Part shown: piece by piece, positions 2,901 to 63,163 of the stretch | How the letters are laid out: each line of letters starts with the position of its first letter | How positions within the stretch are numbered: position 1 is the stretch's first letter | Source: a virus | Taxonomy: Duplodnaviria; Caudoviricetes | Virus record (IMG/VR): IMGVR_UViG_3300037418_002116 | DNA length: 64,000 nucleotides | Reading direction: 5' to 3' (one strand) | Made by a program: the position numbers and the translations under genes | The notes under the pieces: generated by a model | Told to the model about the DNA's origin: nothing | Databases searched by the model: none | The model's input: the letters and a program-made list of their open reading frames with translations, nothing else

Positions 2901-2976
2901 TGGTGGAGCCAGTCGGAATCGAACCGACAACCTTTACCTTGCAAGGGTACTGCTCTCCCAATTGAGCTATGGCCCC
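2901..2976 (-). tRNA. tRNA-Ala(UGC)
   Basis: GGGGCCA/TGGCTCC acceptor with G3:U70, CT-TGC-AA loop, TTCGATT T loop, encoded CCA. Confidence 0.93.
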
Positions 2977-41670: not shown

Positions 41671-41748
41671 GCCCATGTAGGCCAATCGGTTAGAGTCGGC
41701 GGACTTAAAATCCGTACAGTGTGGGTTCGAATCCCACCATGGGCACCA
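41671..41748 (+). tRNA. tRNA-Leu(UAA) with short variable region
   Basis: GCCCATG/CATGGGC; GCGGA-CTTAAAA-TCCGT; 5-nt variable region; CCA; TAAATA at 41661. Confidence 0.88.
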
Positions 41749-42210: not shown

Positions 42211-42287
42211 CGGCGGTTCGTACAGCGGCCTAGTACCCCCTGCTCATAACAGGTGCAACGCCGGTTCGAATCCGGCACCGCCAACCA
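42211..42287 (+). tRNA. tRNA-Met(CAU) with C1:A72 mismatch
   Basis: CGGCGGT/ACCGCCA; CT-CAT-AA loop; GCCGG-TTCGAAT-CCGGC; CCA. Confidence 0.88.
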
Positions 42288-42926: not shown

Positions 42927-43003
42927 TGGAACGTAGCTTAGCCCGGTAAAGCCCTCAACTGATAATTGAGAGATCAGTGGTTCGAATCCACTCGTTCCAA
43001 CCA
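42927..43003 (+). tRNA. tRNA-Ile(GAU)
   Basis: TGGAACG/CGTTCCA; CTCAA-CTGATAA-TTGAG; CCA. Confidence 0.92.
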
Positions 43004-49017: not shown

Positions 49018-50388
49018 TTACACAAGATTTTTTACGACAAAACCACGATAGTAGCTGTTTTTCTTGTTTACGTGAATTGCGCCGTCCGCAGCCGAAGTAG
49101 CGAATGGGTGAGCAACCATACCGTAACGTGTCTTGAAGCCGATCTTAGGCTGGAAAGTATCCTGACCAACTGCACGGTACATCTGTAGAGGGATGTATGG
49201 GCAGTAGAACATACCGGCGTCGAATGACGAAGTACCCTTGTAACCAACTACGGCAATCTGGTTGCCCGCAGAAGAGTTTGCATATGGATCAATGTAAACC
49301 TTGTACTGGCCGAATAGAGTACCAGCGAAGGTGTTACCTGTGTCGTCAACTTCAAGAGTTTCCTTCTGCATTGCCGACTGGTAGTCGAGATAGCCAGCCA
49401 TACGGAAGGCAGATGCTACGTCAGAAGAGCAGAGAACGAAGTTACCCTTACCACGACGGGTTGCCTTGGCAATAGCGTTAGCTTCACGTTCAATCTGGAA
49501 TAGAAGACCCTTGAACTTTTCAACCATCCAACGACCGTTCGAGTCAACGTCCAAGTCGTAATAACCAGCGGTTGCTACGTTGTCCTGTGCACCGATTGTG
49601 GCAGTTGCATAGATCGAACGAATAACTTGACGGTTGATTTCGGCAAGAATTTCTGATGACAGAATGTTTGACAATTCTGTTTCAGCGTCCAAACCGTGCA
49701 CGGCCTTCAAGTCCTGTGCAAGTTCGTGTGAGTATTCAGCCTTCAAAGCACGGGACATTGCTGTTACCGAAATCTTTTCGATGCTGAATGACATTTCTTG
49801 GAACGCATTCTTTGAACCGTCGCCAAGAGCTTCGGCAGCGTTACGTGTCATACCAGTTGCGAAGGTGTAGGCAGTGTTACCAGTTGTGATCAACAACGTT
49901 GGGTCTGTACCTGTCTGAACACCACCAACGGCGGTTACAGAGGCAGTGTTACCAGCCGCAGAAGCAGACCAGTTAGTCTGTGGTTCATTGAAGAGAGCTT
50001 CTGTACCTGTCTGATTCTGGTAGCGAGAACGCAACGCAAAGATCAAACCGGTTGGAAGTGTCATTGGCTGAACGCCGCACAGATCGTAAGCGATCAAGTT
50101 TGGCATCGAACGACGGATCAACGAAATCAACACAGGGTCATAAGTATCGATAGCACCGTCAGATGCGTTCGATGACGAATTACCCATAGAGTTTGTTGGA
50201 GCCGCTTCAAGCAAGTAAGTCAAAGACTGAGTCTTGTCACGGGCAACCGTTTCCATGTTTGCCTTCAACTGGTTTTCCAGAAGAATCGCAACAGTCGAAC
50301 GACGATGCGAATCTCTGATCTTTGGAAGGTCTTCATGGTCAAGGACCGGAGCCCACTTTTCCATCAATGTATTGATATCGTATTCCAT
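49018..50388 (-). CDS. 23: Major capsid protein (gp23)
   Basis: LISLIRRSMPNLIAYDLCGVQPM..SRALKAEYS..FYCPYIPL..FQPKIGFKTRYG. Confidence 0.98.
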   Translation of the reverse strand: MEYDINTLMEKWAPVLDHEDLPKIRDSHRRSTVAILLENQLKANMETVARDKTQSLTYLLEAAPTNSMGNSSSNASDGAIDTYDPVLISLIRRSMPNLIAYDLCGVQPMTLPTGLIFALRSRYQNQTGTEALFNEPQTNWSASAAGNTASVTAVGGVQTGTDPTLLITTGNTAYTFATGMTRNAAEALGDGSKNAFQEMSFSIEKISVTAMSRALKAEYSHELAQDLKAVHGLDAETELSNILSSEILAEINRQVIRSIYATATIGAQDNVATAGYYDLDVDSNGRWMVEKFKGLLFQIEREANAIAKATRRGKGNFVLCSSDVASAFRMAGYLDYQSAMQKETLEVDDTGNTFAGTLFGQYKVYIDPYANSSAGNQIAVVGYKGTSSFDAGMFYCPYIPLQMYRAVGQDTFQPKIGFKTRYGMVAHPFATSAADGAIHVNKKNSYYRGFVVKNLV

Positions 50389-50433
50389 TTTTACTTTAAT
50401 CTCCTGTTAGGAATTCTTTAATATATTTAGCAA

Positions 50434-58720: not shown

Positions 58721-59032
58721 ATGACCATTGGGGACATTATGGTAGATACTTCAAATCCGTTTTTTGGAAAAAAACATACCGCCGCTTCCCGCAAAAAAAT
58801 TAAAGAAAATCATGTCGGCATGACCGGCAAAAAACATTCCCCAGAAACGAAAGAAAAAATGTCAACGGCACACACGGGCCGGAATTGGGTTTACAAAGGA
58901 ATGGTCACCAAATCTATTCCGAGTGAAGAACTGGATTCCTATCTCGAAAGCGGTTGGTTGAGAGGCAGAGCTATCGATAAAAGAGGATCGAAGAGCTACA
59001 TGCTGAAATTTTTGTTCGAAAATTCCCCTTGA
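58721..59032 (+). pseudogene. NUMOD3-only homing endonuclease remnant
   Basis: NPFFGKKHT..; GMTGKKHSPETKEKMS; no GIY-YIG or HNH catalytic domain. Confidence 0.6.
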
Positions 59033-60296: not shown

Positions 60297-60824
60297 ATGG
60301 ATTATTTGTTTTGGGGATTAATGCTAATCCCATTTGCGTTTGCTGTTGCAGCTAGTGAATATGAGTCCATCGTCGCTGGCCTTGTCTCAATCGTTCTTGC
60401 TGCCGCTTTCTTTTATATCTTCACGGACTACAATCCGCTTCCTTGGATTGTCGCCAACCCCGGAACCGCTGCGATCTACACCGGTTTATATTTTGTGACC
60501 GGTGCGATATATTCCGTCGTGAAATGGCTGTATGTCGTGAACACATCGACGAACAGAATCAAAACGGATTTCGAGAGGTTCAAACTCAATAATCGTGATG
60601 ATACCTCAATCGAAGCCTTCAAAAAATCCGAATACAATAGCCTGAAAGTCTTGAAGAACAAGGCTCGAATCATGGGCTGGCTTGTCTGGTGGGTTCCGTC
60701 TCTCTTCTGGACTGTTACCCATGATCTTTTCCGCAAAATTTGGGATCACATTTACAATATGTTCTCCGGTTTGTACGAAAAGATCGTTTCTCGCAAGATC
60801 GATTCTACGCTGAAAGATTTCTAA
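60297..60824 (+). CDS. Multi-pass membrane protein
   Basis: Three N-terminal hydrophobic segments plus a C-terminal WLVWWVP segment. Confidence 0.7.
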   Translation: MDYLFWGLMLIPFAFAVAASEYESIVAGLVSIVLAAAFFYIFTDYNPLPWIVANPGTAAIYTGLYFVTGAIYSVVKWLYVVNTSTNRIKTDFERFKLNNRDDTSIEAFKKSEYNSLKVLKNKARIMGWLVWWVPSLFWTVTHDLFRKIWDHIYNMFSGLYEKIVSRKIDSTLKDF

Positions 60825-60833
60825 TTTTTCTGC

Positions 60834-60862
60834 TTGACTCTTAAAAGCGAATAGATTATACA
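60834..60862 (+). promoter_or_regulatory. Promoter for tmRNA
   Basis: CTTGACT-N17-TATACA. Confidence 0.7.
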
Positions 60863-60867
60863 TATAC

Positions 60868-61195
60868 TCGTTGTGATGAAGACGACTGAAAGGTATTCAG
60901 GACTCGGGGGCGGAACCCGACTAGTCCACCACAACCAGATAGAGGGACGAAAGCCCGGCCAATAACACGGCGTCGTATGATGGCTGGCGTTCTATCTGGT
61001 TATGATGGGCTAGAAACAGGATCGACTGGTACGTAATAGGAAGTTGGAGCAACCGGCATTGTACCGCCGTTATCGGGCTAAACACAATAAGAGACAACGA
61101 TAACTTCGTTCCTCTGGCAATCGCTGCCTAATCAGCAGTAGCCAATGAGTTTTGGCGGTTGAACTTGGAAACAGAATCAACCGCCGCTTCTATTT
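60868..61195 (+). ncRNA. ssrA: Circularly permuted two-piece tmRNA
   Basis: Acceptor piece ends TCGGG-GGCGGAA-CCCGA-CTAGTCC-ACCA (60931); coding piece starts GGGCTAG (61007) with G3:U70; tag DNDNFVPLAIAA-stop at 61093-61131. Confidence 0.93.
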
Positions 61196-61207
61196 TCAGG
61201 AAAAAAT

Positions 61208-61522
61208 TTGAGTAGAATATTAACCAACGGCGCACTTGTGCCGGAAGACAATTCCCATACAGAAATCAATCCGGTCACAGGTCAACAAAAGGCTTATGTG
61301 ATTCTCTCGGAAGACGAACGGGCCAAGGGCTTCGTTCGCCCGCTTCGCAGAAGCTACAAACACACAGTGTGTGGAACCGAAACCACGATGGGTCAAGCCA
61401 TCGCTGAAACCTACGCTCGTAATCCGAAATTTTATTCTGCCACCTTCTGTTGTCAGTGCAAAACACATAAGCCTCTAAACGAATTTCATTGGTCCGGTAC
61501 AACGGAAATTGTTGGATCATGA
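61208..61522 (+). CDS. Hypothetical Zn-binding protein
   Basis: HTVCG..FCCQC; TTG start. Confidence 0.65.
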   Translation: MSRILTNGALVPEDNSHTEINPVTGQQKAYVILSEDERAKGFVRPLRRSYKHTVCGTETTMGQAIAETYARNPKFYSATFCCQCKTHKPLNEFHWSGTTEIVGS

Positions 61523-61743
61523 AAAAAGATTTAGACCCAGATTTTTGGGATGACTTCGTTTTCTTGGCCCAATCCTTTGCTTCGATCATGCAAGGCGATG
61601 TTTATGACCATCGCATAAATGGCGCATATGCCATCATGAAAAAATATGGATTGGACGAATACGGATGTCCACCGGAAGACGAAGAAGACGACACGCCAGT
61701 TCCTATGATTCCGGCTAAGAAGCCGAAACAGGCGTTGGATTGA
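61519..61743 (+). CDS. Hypothetical acidic protein
   Basis: ATGA-coupled start MKKDLDP. Confidence 0.55.
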   Translation: MKKDLDPDFWDDFVFLAQSFASIMQGDVYDHRINGAYAIMKKYGLDEYGCPPEDEEDDTPVPMIPAKKPKQALD

Positions 61744-61970
61744 GCGACTTCCTAAATGACTTCGAATCGTTATTCGGAGTCCCTGATAAGCCGAAGCGAG
61801 ACTTCACCAAAGAAGTCCAGACAACCCAAGCAAATCCAGATGCCAAAAAGCTGATAACCATTCGGCTTGATCGGGATATTATAGCTTATTTTCAACAGCA
61901 AGGCGAAGGGTATCAAACCCGTATCAATAATGCCTTGCGGGAATTTATGAATCAACGATTAAAGAAATAA
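61740..61970 (+). CDS. brnA: BrnA-family antitoxin (ribbon-helix-helix), orphan
   Basis: KLITIRLDRDIIAYFQQQGEGYQTRINNALREF. Confidence 0.85.
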   Translation: MSDFLNDFESLFGVPDKPKRDFTKEVQTTQANPDAKKLITIRLDRDIIAYFQQQGEGYQTRINNALREFMNQRLKK

Positions 61971-62359
61971 TGCGTGTAGTCAGTGAGGAAGAGTTCTCTC
62001 AAACGCTTAGGGAACAGCTTTCAGACGATTCTTTTGATGAATTTGGTGTGGTGACCGGGCCGGGACGTTCCGGCGCTGTAGCAGCCGTGTATGCCTCGCA
62101 TTTCCTGCATATTCCATTCATCCCATACGGTGCCAATGCTCCCGTCCATCTTGGCCGATTGCTGATTATCGATACCGCTGAACAGACCGGCAAAACAATC
62201 CGCAAAGCATCACGTCGATATGAAAATGTGCCTCATTCCGTGCACACGCTTTACAAAGAGCCGCCAAGAGTTTGCTTTTGGTATGAAGCTCCAAAGCCAC
62301 AACATTATAAACACGAAAGATTAAATGAACAGCCTACCGAACATTCTGACCAAGGATAG
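61970..62359 (+). CDS. Type I phosphoribosyltransferase-fold protein
   Basis: VVTGPGRSGAVAAVYASH..LLIIDTAEQTGKTI (degenerate PRPP loop). Confidence 0.6.
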   Translation: MRVVSEEEFSQTLREQLSDDSFDEFGVVTGPGRSGAVAAVYASHFLHIPFIPYGANAPVHLGRLLIIDTAEQTGKTIRKASRRYENVPHSVHTLYKEPPRVCFWYEAPKPQHYKHERLNEQPTEHSDQG

Positions 62360-62561
62360 TTTTTCGAAGGAAGTTGAAAAATTTGTTCTGGAAACCGGTT
62401 CCGATTACATGGATGCCGTATTGCATATCTGTCAAGTGAGAGATATCGAGCCCGAGACAGCCGCCAAGCTTATAAACGCCAATGTCAAAGGTATGATCGA
62501 AAAGGAAGCCAGCGATCTAAACCTTTTGGAAGAGAAACCACAATCACTGGAATTTGAATGA
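62325..62561 (+). CDS. 33: Late transcription coactivator (gp33)
   Basis: FSKEVEK..YMDAVLH..EPETAAKLI..IEKEA..LNLL. Confidence 0.88.
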   Translation: MNSLPNILTKDSFSKEVEKFVLETGSDYMDAVLHICQVRDIEPETAAKLINANVKGMIEKEASDLNLLEEKPQSLEFE

Positions 62562-63163
62562 TTTCTCCCGAGCGAACGAAACAGATTTTTGTTGCTCTTC
62601 GTTTGCACTTCACCGGCTCATACGACTACATCAAATATCAAGGCAAGACTCGGACCGGACTAAAGCCAGCGGAAACATGGGCAGTCGAAAAGATCGCCTT
62701 CAAATTCCAGAACGAAGAAGCTATTAAAGATTTCTTTGTCGCCAATATGATCGACGGTTTTGTGAAGACCGGAAAAATAGGCTCATTCATCAATGCCTAT
62801 GCCAACAAAGATGCGACAGAAATTTATGAAAAATCGACAAATTGGTATAACGCCTCATACAATCTGACTTCGGATTTGAACAAGTTCGATGGTCTGAAAG
62901 ATTTGACCGTCTGTGTCGATGGCAATCATCCAAAAATTTTCCAAGCGGTTTTGGAAAATGAAATTTCGATTTTCACCATGGCTTGTGTGATGCTATTTTT
63001 AGGTGATCGAATTGTCGATTACTGGACTAAAAATTGTGATGATACAGTATTGTTTGGGGACTATATTCGATTTTTGAAGAAATATGTCCCGCTCATACCA
63101 AAAGATAATGAAAAGATAAAAGAAGCAATCAGTAGTTACAACTATAAACATAGGAATATATGA
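62558..63163 (+). CDS. 59: Helicase loader (gp59)
   Basis: FVALRLHFT.SYDYIKYQGK; DFFVAN; synteny 33-59-32. Confidence 0.88.
   Translation: MISPERTKQIFVALRLHFTGSYDYIKYQGKTRTGLKPAETWAVEKIAFKFQNEEAIKDFFVANMIDGFVKTGKIGSFINAYANKDATEIYEKSTNWYNASYNLTSDLNKFDGLKDLTVCVDGNHPKIFQAVLENEISIFTMACVMLFLGDRIVDYWTKNCDDTVLFGDYIRFLKKYVPLIPKDNEKIKEAISSYNYKHRNI

What the first reader, a model, noticed from the sequence alone, without database searches (positions are those of the whole stretch)
60834..61195. Phage-encoded circularly permuted two-piece tmRNA with its own tag
Seen: promoter; acceptor piece (~60868-60931) with the alphaproteobacterial-type GGCGGAA T loop and CCA; intervening segment closed by AACCAGATAG/CTATCTGGTT; coding piece from 61007 (GGGCTAG, Ala G3:U70); tag frame DNDNFVPLAIAA-stop; final hairpin GGCGGTTGA/TCAACCGCC. 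Known: permuted ssrA is typical of Alphaproteobacteria, whose tags start ANDN and end AA for ClpXP; most described phage tmRNAs are one-piece. The resume codon appears to be GAC rather than GCN (inferred by alignment). No smpB is in this window. Inference: the phage supplies ribosome rescue when host tRNA, mRNA or tmRNA is cleaved, and may redirect proteolysis.
Basis: partly seen in the sequence, partly recalled or inferred. Interest (0 to 1): 0.85.

Follow-up and report, generated by a model that had tools for sequence, protein, structure and literature searches.

The report
Two-piece tmRNA gene in soil phage
A T4-like phage from soil carries a complete, circularly permuted (two-piece) tmRNA gene for rescuing stalled ribosomes; the reading is correct, but such genes are already described in related marine phages, so this is a new member of a known kind.

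Summary
Rfam finds a full-length alphaproteobacterial-type permuted tmRNA at 60830-61185 (+): RF01849 126 bits, E 5e-34; RF04321 109 bits.

The window is a T4-like myovirus that occurs in soil and rhizosphere metagenomes. No smpB lies in the window.

The kind is not new:
- Two-piece tmRNAs were reported for Melnitz and pelagimyophages, directly upstream of the gp33 coactivator gene (PMC9004378).
- GenBank annotates "SsrA" in that position in Pelagibacter phage Mosig.
- The window has the same order, tmRNA then gp33 then gp59, as do 47 of 125 IMG/VR tmRNA loci.

The GAC (Asp) resume codon is probably real, because U and A lie at -5 and -4. It is not unique. It occurs in other phage copies and in the single native tmRNA of several alphaproteobacteria.

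ARAGORN misses this gene.

Rhizosphere RNA libraries hold a close variant of the coding piece, about 97% identical (two substitutions and three one-base indels in 152 nt). Within the tag it differs only by one silent change and one Ile-to-Val change.

Function is inferred, not shown. Earlier scan notes on other genomes also describe permuted tmRNAs.

The parts
60834..60862 (+). Sigma-70-type promoter-like site, TTGACT-17 nt-TATACA. It would start transcription near 60869-60870, the first base of the acceptor piece.
   Evidence: Read from the sequence. It aligns to the promoter-like 5' columns of RF01849. The consensus scan instead lists an overlapping TTAAAA-16-TATACT site at 60841-60868. Function is inferred.
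60870..60931 (+). Acceptor piece (62 nt). It holds the P2 strands GUUGU 60870-74, CGACU 60883-87 and UAU/CAG 60894-60900, the T arm 60904-60920 with loop GGCGGAA, the acceptor 3' strand 60921-27, discriminator A 60928 and the encoded CCA.
   Evidence: The RF04321 alignment starts at 60870. Cofolding recovers the T arm and acceptor stem.
60932..61006 (+). Intervening segment, removed on maturation. It is a long hairpin closed by a 10-bp stem, extended to 12 bp in the predicted fold.
   Evidence: Fold -29.2 kcal/mol, z -3.7. A related contig in run X19 has a different 81-nt sequence here, while both flanks are conserved. Intervening lengths range from 2 to 266 nt in 85 parsed tmRNA loci, 78 viral and 7 bacterial.
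61007..61092 (+). 5' part of the coding piece. It holds the acceptor 5' strand 61007-13 (G3 at 61009), the conserved AAACAGGAUCGAC 61014-26, the P2 strands 61026-31, 61042-46 and 61049-53, pseudoknot-1 stem 1 at 61054-57/61066-69, and the frame-setting U61088 A61089.
   Evidence: Rfam alignments with high posterior probability. The pairings were read. The 4-nt ruler rule for A86 comes from PMC2481249.
61093..61131 (+). Tag reading frame GAC...GCC followed by TAA. It encodes DNDNFVPLAIAA, so tagged proteins would end in A-DNDNFVPLAIAA.
   Evidence: Aligned to the GCA AAC GAC AAC frame of both Rfam models. Parsed by script. A relative in RNA libraries differs in the tag only by GCA>GCT (silent) and ATC>GTC (Ile to Val).
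61153..61196 (+). 3'-terminal hairpin of the coding piece: a 10-bp stem, the 14-nt loop ACUUGGAAACAGAA and a T-rich tail. It is a family-typical element and the probable terminator.
   Evidence: The loop motif YUGGNAACAGAA (N was A or C in every hit) was found in 35 of 127 tmRNA loci. In those listed it sits on a 5-10-bp stem whose sequence differs between most loci. Phage Mosig has the identical loop on an unrelated stem.
62325..63163 (+). Downstream context on the same strand: gp33 late-transcription coactivator (62325-62561) and gp59 helicase loader (62558-63163).
   Evidence: phrog_254 at 4.6e-18 and phrog_269 at 3e-20. The same order and strand occur in 47 of 125 IMG/VR tmRNA loci and in phage Mosig.

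Best explanation
This is a working ssrA gene of a lytic T4-like phage, of the alphaproteobacterial two-piece type.

Inferred pathway:
1. Host RNA polymerase transcribes a precursor of about 320 nt from an early-type promoter.
2. Host RNase P cuts 5' of G61007, and 3' trimming exposes the CCA at 60931. The 75-nt intervening hairpin is discarded.
3. The 62-nt acceptor piece and the coding piece of about 180 nt stay together through the 7-bp acceptor stem and three P2 helices.
4. Host AlaRS charges the RNA through G3:U70.
5. Host SmpB, since none is encoded nearby, brings it to ribosomes stalled on broken mRNAs.
6. Translation resumes at GAC 61093, four bases after A61089, adds A-DNDNFVPLAIAA and stops at UAA.
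7. The ...AIAA end sends the product to ClpXP-type proteolysis.

The gene belongs to a phage lineage of ssrA that sits upstream of gp33 and gp59 in T4-like phages of streamlined marine hosts. Here it appears in a soil phage. Its likely benefit is extra ribosome-recycling capacity while the phage degrades host mRNA.

Shown: the gene's identity, anatomy, synteny and phage setting. Inferred: processing, charging, use of host SmpB, the resume codon and the benefit.
For: - Two Rfam models match full length at E 5e-34 and E 2e-20.
- The acceptor stem with G3:U70, the T arm, the CCA and the inter-piece helices are all present.
- U and A lie at -5/-4 before GAC, as the A86 ruler requires.
- The family-typical 3' hairpin loop sits on a covarying stem.
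- Phage genes lie on both sides: sheath, portal, major capsid protein and DNA polymerase, and gp33 and gp59.
- The same tmRNA-gp33-gp59 order occurs in 47 of 125 IMG/VR loci, in Mosig and in Melnitz (PMC9004378).
- Its RF01849 score of 126 bits lies in the range of other phage copies (61-143 bits). Native bacterial copies score 193-295 bits.
- A variant about 97% identical sits in rhizosphere RNA libraries. Its tag changes are silent or conservative, and its intervening segment is unrelated.
- ARAGORN itself assigns DNDN tags to comparable genes.
Against: - There is no direct evidence of processing, alanylation or tagging.
- The RNA-library records are assembled contigs that run past the hairpin into unlike sequence. 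They could be read-through transcripts or DNA carry-over.
- ARAGORN does not call the gene.
- One P2 helix fits only after a 1-nt register shift from the model. Stem 2 of pseudoknot 1 could not be assigned.
- The minimum-energy cofold misses the proximal P2 pairs, and its energy is only 1.7 sd better than shuffles.
- The nearest isolated relatives, phiM12 and Ochrobactrum phage vB_OspM_OC, have no tmRNA, so the gene is dispensable in this group.
- The rest of the genome could not be searched for smpB.
Confidence: 0.8

Rival explanations
1. Same functional tmRNA, but translation resumes one codon later at AAC 61096. GAC would then act as the -1 triplet. The added peptide would be A-NDNFVPLAIAA, a canonical ANDN tag in which the charged alanine supplies the first A.
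For: A61092 also lies four bases before AAC 61096, so the A-ruler alone does not exclude this. The product would match the ANDN... start seen in nearly all other copies.
Against: Both Rfam models align GAC to the consensus GCA resume codon. The natural consensus is U-A at -5/-4. That fits U61088-A61089 before GAC, not G61091-A61092. The same UAA/CAA-N2-GAC spacing recurs in L002, L008 and the bacterial DNDN copies. ARAGORN also calls DNDN there.
Confidence: 0.12
2. A competitor rather than a helper. The phage RNA titrates host SmpB, AlaRS or EF-Tu, and so displaces the host tmRNA. This would block host quality control, or replace the host tag with one whose altered N-terminal part is handled differently by adaptors such as SspB.
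For: A phage RNA holding only the tRNA-like domain (DS6A) is reported to resemble molecules that inhibit tmRNA (PMC4131195; PMC11915505). No smpB is in the window. The first encoded residue is Asp instead of Ala. From my own knowledge, that position contributes to SspB and ClpA recognition in E. coli.
Against: A full tag frame with a stop codon, the ruler and an AA end is kept. It shows only silent or conservative change in a relative, which argues that the tag is translated. Free-living bacteria with normal SmpB use DNDN tags as their only tmRNA, so the Asp start is compatible with ordinary function.
Confidence: 0.06
3. A decaying or passenger copy with no role: an integration-site relic, a recent capture from a host, or host DNA mis-joined to a phage contig.
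For: tmRNA genes are common integration sites, and fragments of them occur in prophages (PMC9004378). The tmRNA on the provirus contig L006 may be such a host copy at an integration site (this is my inference and was not checked). Close isolates lack the gene.
Against: The gene is complete from promoter to terminator and lies between phage genes. The stretch 60300-62600 is held whole, or nearly so (share of sampled words 0.99-1.00), in six soil or rhizosphere runs that may include the window's own source. Parts of it occur in four more. Its position upstream of gp33 is conserved across dozens of T4-like contigs. It is only 53-59% identical to the seven bacterial copies compared, all of the DNDN or ADNDN type.
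Confidence: 0.02

Closest known systems
ssrA of Pelagibacter phage Mosig EXVC030M (MT647606.1, tmRNA feature 111467-111805) and of Methylophilales phage Melnitz (Buchholz et al. 2022, PMC9004378)
   Same: The host phage is a T4-like myovirus. The tmRNA is permuted and of the alpha type (Mosig scores 93.6 bits on RF04321). The gene lies on the same strand directly upstream of gp33, with gp59 further on. The 14-nt terminal loop ACUUGGAAACAGAA is identical. Mosig also has a non-Ala resume codon, GGC, giving the tag GEDNFALAA.
   Different: Those are marine phages of streamlined hosts with genomes of about 141 kb. This phage is from soil or rhizosphere. By earlier scan notes that I could not check, its genome exceeds 250 kb. 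Four small genes, including an orphan BrnA, lie between the tmRNA and gp33. No glutamine riboswitch was detected. The tag begins with Asp. No blastn-level similarity was found to any deposited phage.
Native two-piece tmRNA of Alphaproteobacteria (Caulobacter type; Rfam RF01849)
   Same: The gene order, G3:U70, the T loop type, the P2 helices, the N-D-N core and AA end of the tag, and the conserved 3' hairpin loop all agree. Some native copies also start with GAC: Paracoccaceae DNDNRAPVAVAA, Sphingomonas DNDNQALAIAA and a Mesorhizobium genome assembled from a metagenome (MAG). Each is the only copy in its genome.
   Different: This copy is carried by a lytic phage, with no smpB in the 64-kb window (the rest of the genome was not searched). 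It is much more diverged: 126 bits against 193-295 bits on RF01849, and 53-59% identity.
DNDN-tagged phage tmRNAs in IMG/VR: L002/L009, the former on a 455-kb jumbo-phage contig, and L008
   Same: They share the T loop GGCGGAA and the GAC resume codon (tags DNDNTVMALAA and DNDNQPVTALRIAA). L002/L009 are the closest sequences found, at 68% identity. No smpB was found in their contigs.
   Different: Their genomic context differs, with no gp33 downstream. Their intervening segments are much shorter or unrelated.
One-piece tmRNAs of mycobacteriophages (Bxz1 group) and Bacillus phage G
   Same: They are phage-encoded ssrA without smpB (PMC4131195).
   Different: They have the standard, unpermuted gene form and come from unrelated phage lineages and hosts.

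Membership tests
tmRNA, permuted two-piece form, alpha type (Rfam RF01849 / RF04321) | Full-length match above the curated gathering score of the family covariance models | tested here: met
   RF01849: 126.3 bits against 50, model positions 1-355. RF04321: 109.2 bits against 47, model positions 1-213.
tmRNA, permuted two-piece form, alpha type (Rfam RF01849 / RF04321) | tRNA-like domain: 7-bp acceptor stem with G3:U70, discriminator A, 3' CCA and a T arm | tested here: met
   61007-13 pairs with 60921-27, including G61009:U60925. A60928 is the discriminator, CCA is at 60929-31, and the T arm is 60904-20.
tmRNA, permuted two-piece form, alpha type (Rfam RF01849 / RF04321) | Circular permutation: the CCA-ending piece lies upstream of the piece that starts with the 5' acceptor strand, on one strand, with an intervening segment | tested here: met
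   60870-60931, then 75 nt, then 61007 onward.
tmRNA, permuted two-piece form, alpha type (Rfam RF01849 / RF04321) | Helices (P2) that hold the two pieces together | tested here: met
   60870-74 pairs with 61049-53, and 60894-96/60898-900 with 61026-31, in the RF04321 alignment. 60883-87 pairs with 61042-46 only after a 1-nt shift from the model, read from the sequence. The cofold recovers only the distal helix.
tmRNA, permuted two-piece form, alpha type (Rfam RF01849 / RF04321) | Tag frame with an upstream U/A ruler, an in-frame stop and a hydrophobic ...AA end | tested here: met
   U61088-A61089, GAC 61093 through GCC 61128, TAA, and the ending ...LAIAA.
tmRNA, permuted two-piece form, alpha type (Rfam RF01849 / RF04321) | Alanine (GCN) resume codon. 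This is usual but not defining. | tested here: not met
   GAC is aligned to the consensus GCA. The same variant occurs in single-copy native tmRNAs and other phage copies. Mosig uses GGC.
tmRNA, permuted two-piece form, alpha type (Rfam RF01849 / RF04321) | Pseudoknot 1 between P2 and the tag | tested here: inconclusive
   Stem 1 (61054-57/61066-69) is in the RF04321 alignment. I could not assign a convincing second stem by eye, and I ran no covariation test.
tmRNA, permuted two-piece form, alpha type (Rfam RF01849 / RF04321) | Conserved 3' hairpin with loop YUGGMAACAGAA | tested here: met
   The stem is 61153-62/61177-86 and the loop is ACUUGGAAACAGAA. The motif occurs in 35 of 127 loci on stems of differing sequence.
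tmRNA, permuted two-piece form, alpha type (Rfam RF01849 / RF04321) | Maturation into two RNAs, alanylation, SmpB binding and tagging of stalled peptides | not testable with these tools
   Only assembled contigs from RNA libraries were available, and these cannot show RNA ends.
ssrA locus of T4-like (Kyanoviridae-like) phages, Melnitz/Mosig type | T4-like myovirus genome | tested here: met
   PHROG hits for sheath, portal, major capsid protein, scaffold, DNA polymerase and helicases. The capsid protein is 60-64% identical to those of Kyanoviridae members.
ssrA locus of T4-like (Kyanoviridae-like) phages, Melnitz/Mosig type | tmRNA on the same strand upstream of gp33, followed by gp59 | tested here: met
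   tmRNA 60830-61185, gp33 62325-62561, gp59 62558-63163. The order matches Mosig and 47 IMG/VR loci. Four extra small ORFs are inserted here.
ssrA locus of T4-like (Kyanoviridae-like) phages, Melnitz/Mosig type | Glutamine riboswitch in the 3' domain, reported for Melnitz | tested here: not met
   No riboswitch family reached its gathering score anywhere in the window. I regard this as a Melnitz feature rather than one that defines the group; the paper's defining criteria were not checked.

The most novel reading that the evidence does not exclude
The Asp-first tag (A-DNDN...AIAA) is an adaptive variant. It keeps the ClpX-recognised C-terminus but changes the N-terminal part that adaptors and ClpA read. 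Proteins tagged by the phage RNA would then be routed or timed differently from host-tagged ones. Together with the conserved position just upstream of gp33, this would make phage ssrA part of the early-to-late takeover programme rather than a simple spare part.
Probability: 0.12. Interest if true: 0.55.

Novelty: new member of a known kind. Interest (0 to 1): 0.3.

Why it matters
It extends a phage ssrA lineage known from marine pelagimyophages and Melnitz to a large soil or rhizosphere T4-like phage. The conserved tmRNA-gp33-gp59 order suggests vertical inheritance within these phages rather than repeated capture from hosts.

It also shows a practical gap. ARAGORN misses this gene and about 38% of the comparable loci tested here, some of which are cut off by contig ends. 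ARAGORN-based censuses of phage tmRNAs therefore probably undercount them.

The Asp resume codon is a small natural variant that could be used to test how the first tag residues affect adaptor-dependent proteolysis. None of this overturns current understanding.

Tried and rejected
- **Whole-genome search.** Searching the window's own genome for a second tmRNA or smpB failed because no genome is held.
- **Deposited phages.** blastn of the gene against 50,697 phage records found nothing.
- **Nearest isolates.** By sheath DNA and capsid protein these are Sinorhizobium phage phiM12 and Ochrobactrum phage vB_OspM_OC. Neither has a tmRNA, so they give no comparison.
- **Sheath relatives in IMG/VR.** The best is 61% identical. 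None of the loci fetched around them carries the tmRNA signature. Most of these contigs are short.
- **Is the GAC resume codon phage-specific?** Rejected. One scan of 185,579 species genomes found it in native alphaproteobacterial tmRNAs.
- **BrnT toxin next to BrnA.** ORF 61489-61743 has the size and position of a BrnT but matches no Pfam or PHROG family even at E 10. A tmRNA/BrnT-BrnA module is not supported.
- **Expression.** Only Logan contigs were available. They show presence in RNA libraries but no RNA ends.
- **Three-way junction in the intervening segment.** An earlier scan note proposed one. The minimum-energy fold is a single long hairpin with internal loops.
- **Not attempted.** I ran no covariation test of pseudoknot 1 and built no tmRNA tree, because identities of 53-68% over about 180 nt are too low for a reliable tree.

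Full report
**1. The observation**

I read 60600-61500 and ran the detectors. Rfam gives two full-length matches on the + strand. RF01849 (alpha_tmRNA) covers 60830-61185 at 126.3 bits, E 4.8e-34. RF04321 (tmRNA_permuted) covers 60870-61131 at 109.2 bits, E 2.2e-20. ARAGORN reports four tRNAs in the window but no tmRNA (repeated).

- TTGACT-17-TATACA at 60834-60862.
- A 62-nt acceptor piece at 60870-60931, with T stem 60904-08/60916-20, T loop GGCGGAA, acceptor 3' strand 60921-27, discriminator A and CCA.
- A 75-nt intervening segment closed by a 10-bp stem. It folds at -29.2 kcal/mol, z -3.7.
- A coding piece starting at G61007, whose first seven bases pair with 60921-27 and give G3:U70.
- The frame GAC 61093 to GCC 61128 plus TAA, encoding DNDNFVPLAIAA.
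- A terminal hairpin at 61153-62/61177-86.

The RF04321 alignment adds the helices that join the two pieces: 60870-74 with 61049-53, and 60894-96/60898-900 with 61026-31. A third helix, 60883-87 with 61042-46, forms five pairs if shifted one base from the model. Cofolding the two pieces recovers the acceptor stem, the T arm and the distal helix, but not the proximal P2 pairs.

**2. What carries it**

PHROG searches identify T4-type genes: tail sheath, portal, major capsid protein, scaffold, DNA polymerase and helicases. A 258-bp stretch of the sheath gene is 82% identical to Sinorhizobium phage phiM12. The capsid protein is 64% identical to that of Ochrobactrum phage vB_OspM_OC and about 60% to cyanophage and pelagiphage Kyanoviridae.

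The stretch 60300-62600 occurs whole, or nearly so, in six soil or rhizosphere metagenome runs. These may include the window's own source. Parts of it occur in four more runs. The RNA gene is therefore phage-borne, and the phage is a soil phage.

An HMM built from five alphaproteobacterial SmpB proteins finds nothing in the six frames of the window (best E 0.86). The rest of the genome is not held.

**3. Is the kind new? No.**

- Buchholz et al. [quoted passage not shown] They count 53 two-piece forms among 133 unique phage tmRNAs. They find permuted tmRNAs in 17 of 47 Melnitz-like contigs.
- I confirmed this with tools. Pelagibacter phage Mosig has an RF04321 hit at 93.6 bits. GenBank annotates it as tmRNA "SsrA". 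It lies immediately upstream of the gp33 homologue, with a gp59-domain gene further on.
- In the window, gp33 (62325-62561, phrog_254) and gp59 (62558-63163, phrog_269) follow the tmRNA on the same strand.
Fourteen of fifteen sampled loci were confirmed by Rfam.
- In 47 of 125 such loci, gp33 lies downstream in the same orientation, often followed by gp59. Only 81 of the 125 have more than 1.8 kb of downstream sequence.

This is a conserved phage locus. The window's RF01849 score of 126 bits falls in the range of phage copies (61-143 bits). Native bacterial copies score far higher, 193-295 bits. The closest sequences found are viral (68% identity). The bacterial ones compared are 53-59% identical. 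The nearest isolates, phiM12 and vB_OspM_OC, lack a tmRNA, so the gene is common in this broad group but not universal.

**4. The resume codon**

Both Rfam models align GAC 61093-95 to the consensus GCA. In E. coli, A86 sets the frame four bases downstream, and U85 precedes it (PMC2481249). Here U61088 and A61089 stand at -5 and -4 from GAC. The viral copies show the same UAA-N2 spacing before their resume codon. I put about 0.8 on GAC. The alternative, AAC 61096, also has an A four bases before it.

The variant is not unique. Among the IMG/VR loci nearly all tags begin ANDN. However, L002/L009 (the former on a contig of 455 kb that CheckV rates as a complete jumbo phage) and L008 read DNDN. 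These three also share the GGCGGAA T loop.

One scan of 185,579 species genomes for the coding-piece anchor followed by GAC-AAY-GAY-AAY gave 67 stretches. Most are chance matches. Eight are permuted tmRNAs, and six of these are native copies with GAC at the resume position:
- two Paracoccaceae chromosomes,
- a Sphingomonas MAG,
- a Mesorhizobium MAG,
- two Pseudomonadota MAGs.

The other two are a phage contig binned into a MAG, and a Nitratireductor copy with a GCG codon before GAC. The five genomes that I searched each have this as their only alpha_tmRNA match, and each has an ordinary smpB. ARAGORN itself prints DNDN tags for five of these genes. Mosig's tag starts with GGC, Gly. An Asp start is therefore a rare but recurrent natural variant compatible with ordinary function.

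**5. The terminal hairpin**

This is more than a terminator. Its 14-nt loop is identical in Mosig, although the stems share no sequence. The motif YUGGNAACAGAA occurs in 35 of 127 loci, viral and bacterial. In those listed it sits on a 5-10-bp stem whose sequence differs between most loci. It also matches the conserved end of RF01849.

**6. Expression**

No RNA run holds the whole gene. Four rhizosphere metatranscriptome runs from two studies contain short contigs covering 61039-61190, with two substitutions and three single-base indels. One contig covers 60899-60937 and 60997-61180, with an unrelated 81-nt segment in between.

The two substitutions shared by three of these contigs fall inside the tag. 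They are GCA>GCT (silent) and ATC>GTC (Ile to Val). All four contigs carry a 1-nt deletion and a 1-nt insertion upstream of the resume codon that cancel each other.

Laid on 18 kb of the window, the same runs cover little besides the capsid and portal genes. There the identity is lower, about 85-93%. This fits an abundant RNA from a close relative and selection on the tag. The records are assembled contigs that continue past the hairpin, so they cannot show RNA ends or exclude DNA.

**7. Mechanism and rivals**

The best reading (0.8) is an ordinary two-piece tmRNA that uses host RNase P, AlaRS, SmpB and ClpXP, and supplies extra ribosome rescue during infection. The rivals are:
- resumption at AAC rather than GAC (0.12);
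- a competitor that displaces host tmRNA or changes how tagged proteins are handled (0.06);
- a passenger or relic (0.02).

A link to the neighbouring BrnA antitoxin (61740-61970; Pfam 5e-17) is not supported. The ORF before it matches no toxin family.

**8. Verdict**

The element is a new member of a known kind. The modest points of interest are the soil habitat, the conserved gp33-linked locus, the Asp resume codon and the ARAGORN blind spot.

Noticed in passing
window 61740-61970 (+): An orphan BrnA-family antitoxin gene (Pfam PF14384, 5e-17; phrog_4692) lies between the tmRNA and gp33. The ORF just upstream (61489-61743) overlaps its start by 4 nt and has BrnT-like size, but it matches no Pfam or PHROG family even at E 10.
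   Followed up: partly
window 58721-59032 (+): A 103-aa ORF with two NUMOD3 motifs (Pfam 2.4e-13) lies next to the tail sheath gene. It looks like a remnant or a DNA-binding-only piece of a homing endonuclease.
   Followed up: no
L010:8205-8376 (IMGVR_UViG_3300028797_003552): A viral contig that Rfam shows to carry more than 20 tRNA genes also has a 78.7-bit partial match to OLE RNA (RF01071, model positions 437-594). It has the GGCGGAA-type T-arm pattern, but no tmRNA reached the gathering score.
   Followed up: no
L155:1937-2709: A gp33-linked phage tmRNA whose Rfam matches span about 690-770 nt for models of 213-355 positions. This implies an insertion of several hundred bases inside the gene.
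   Followed up: no
L266 (JALOAT010000003.1) versus L009 (IMGVR_UViG_3300028603_002711): A contig of 144,978 bp filed in a 'Gammaproteobacteria' MAG has the same length and the same DNDNTVMALAA tmRNA as an IMG/VR phage contig. It is probably a phage contig binned into a bacterial genome.
   Followed up: partly
L229, L249 (Paracoccaceae chromosomes), L227, L213, L234, L238: These native alphaproteobacterial tmRNAs have GAC (Asp) at the resume position (tags DNDNRAPVAVAA, DNDNQALAIAA and others). In the five genomes searched (all but L238), this is the only tmRNA copy, and each also has a normal smpB.
   Followed up: yes
L286:2968-3306 (Pelagibacter phage Mosig, MT647606.1 111467-111805): The annotated SsrA of this phage appears to resume at GGC (tag GEDNFALAA). 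Its 14-nt terminal loop is identical to the window's, on an unrelated stem.
   Followed up: partly
window 2901-2976 (-), 41671-41748, 42211-42287, 42927-43003 (+): Four phage tRNA genes: Ala-TGC, Leu-TAA, Met-CAT and Ile-GAT. Rfam did not list the Met gene above its gathering score.
   Followed up: no
window 49057-50391 (-): The rhizosphere metatranscriptome runs hold many contigs 85-93% identical to the major capsid gene. Related T4-like phages therefore appear to be transcriptionally active in those soils.
   Followed up: no
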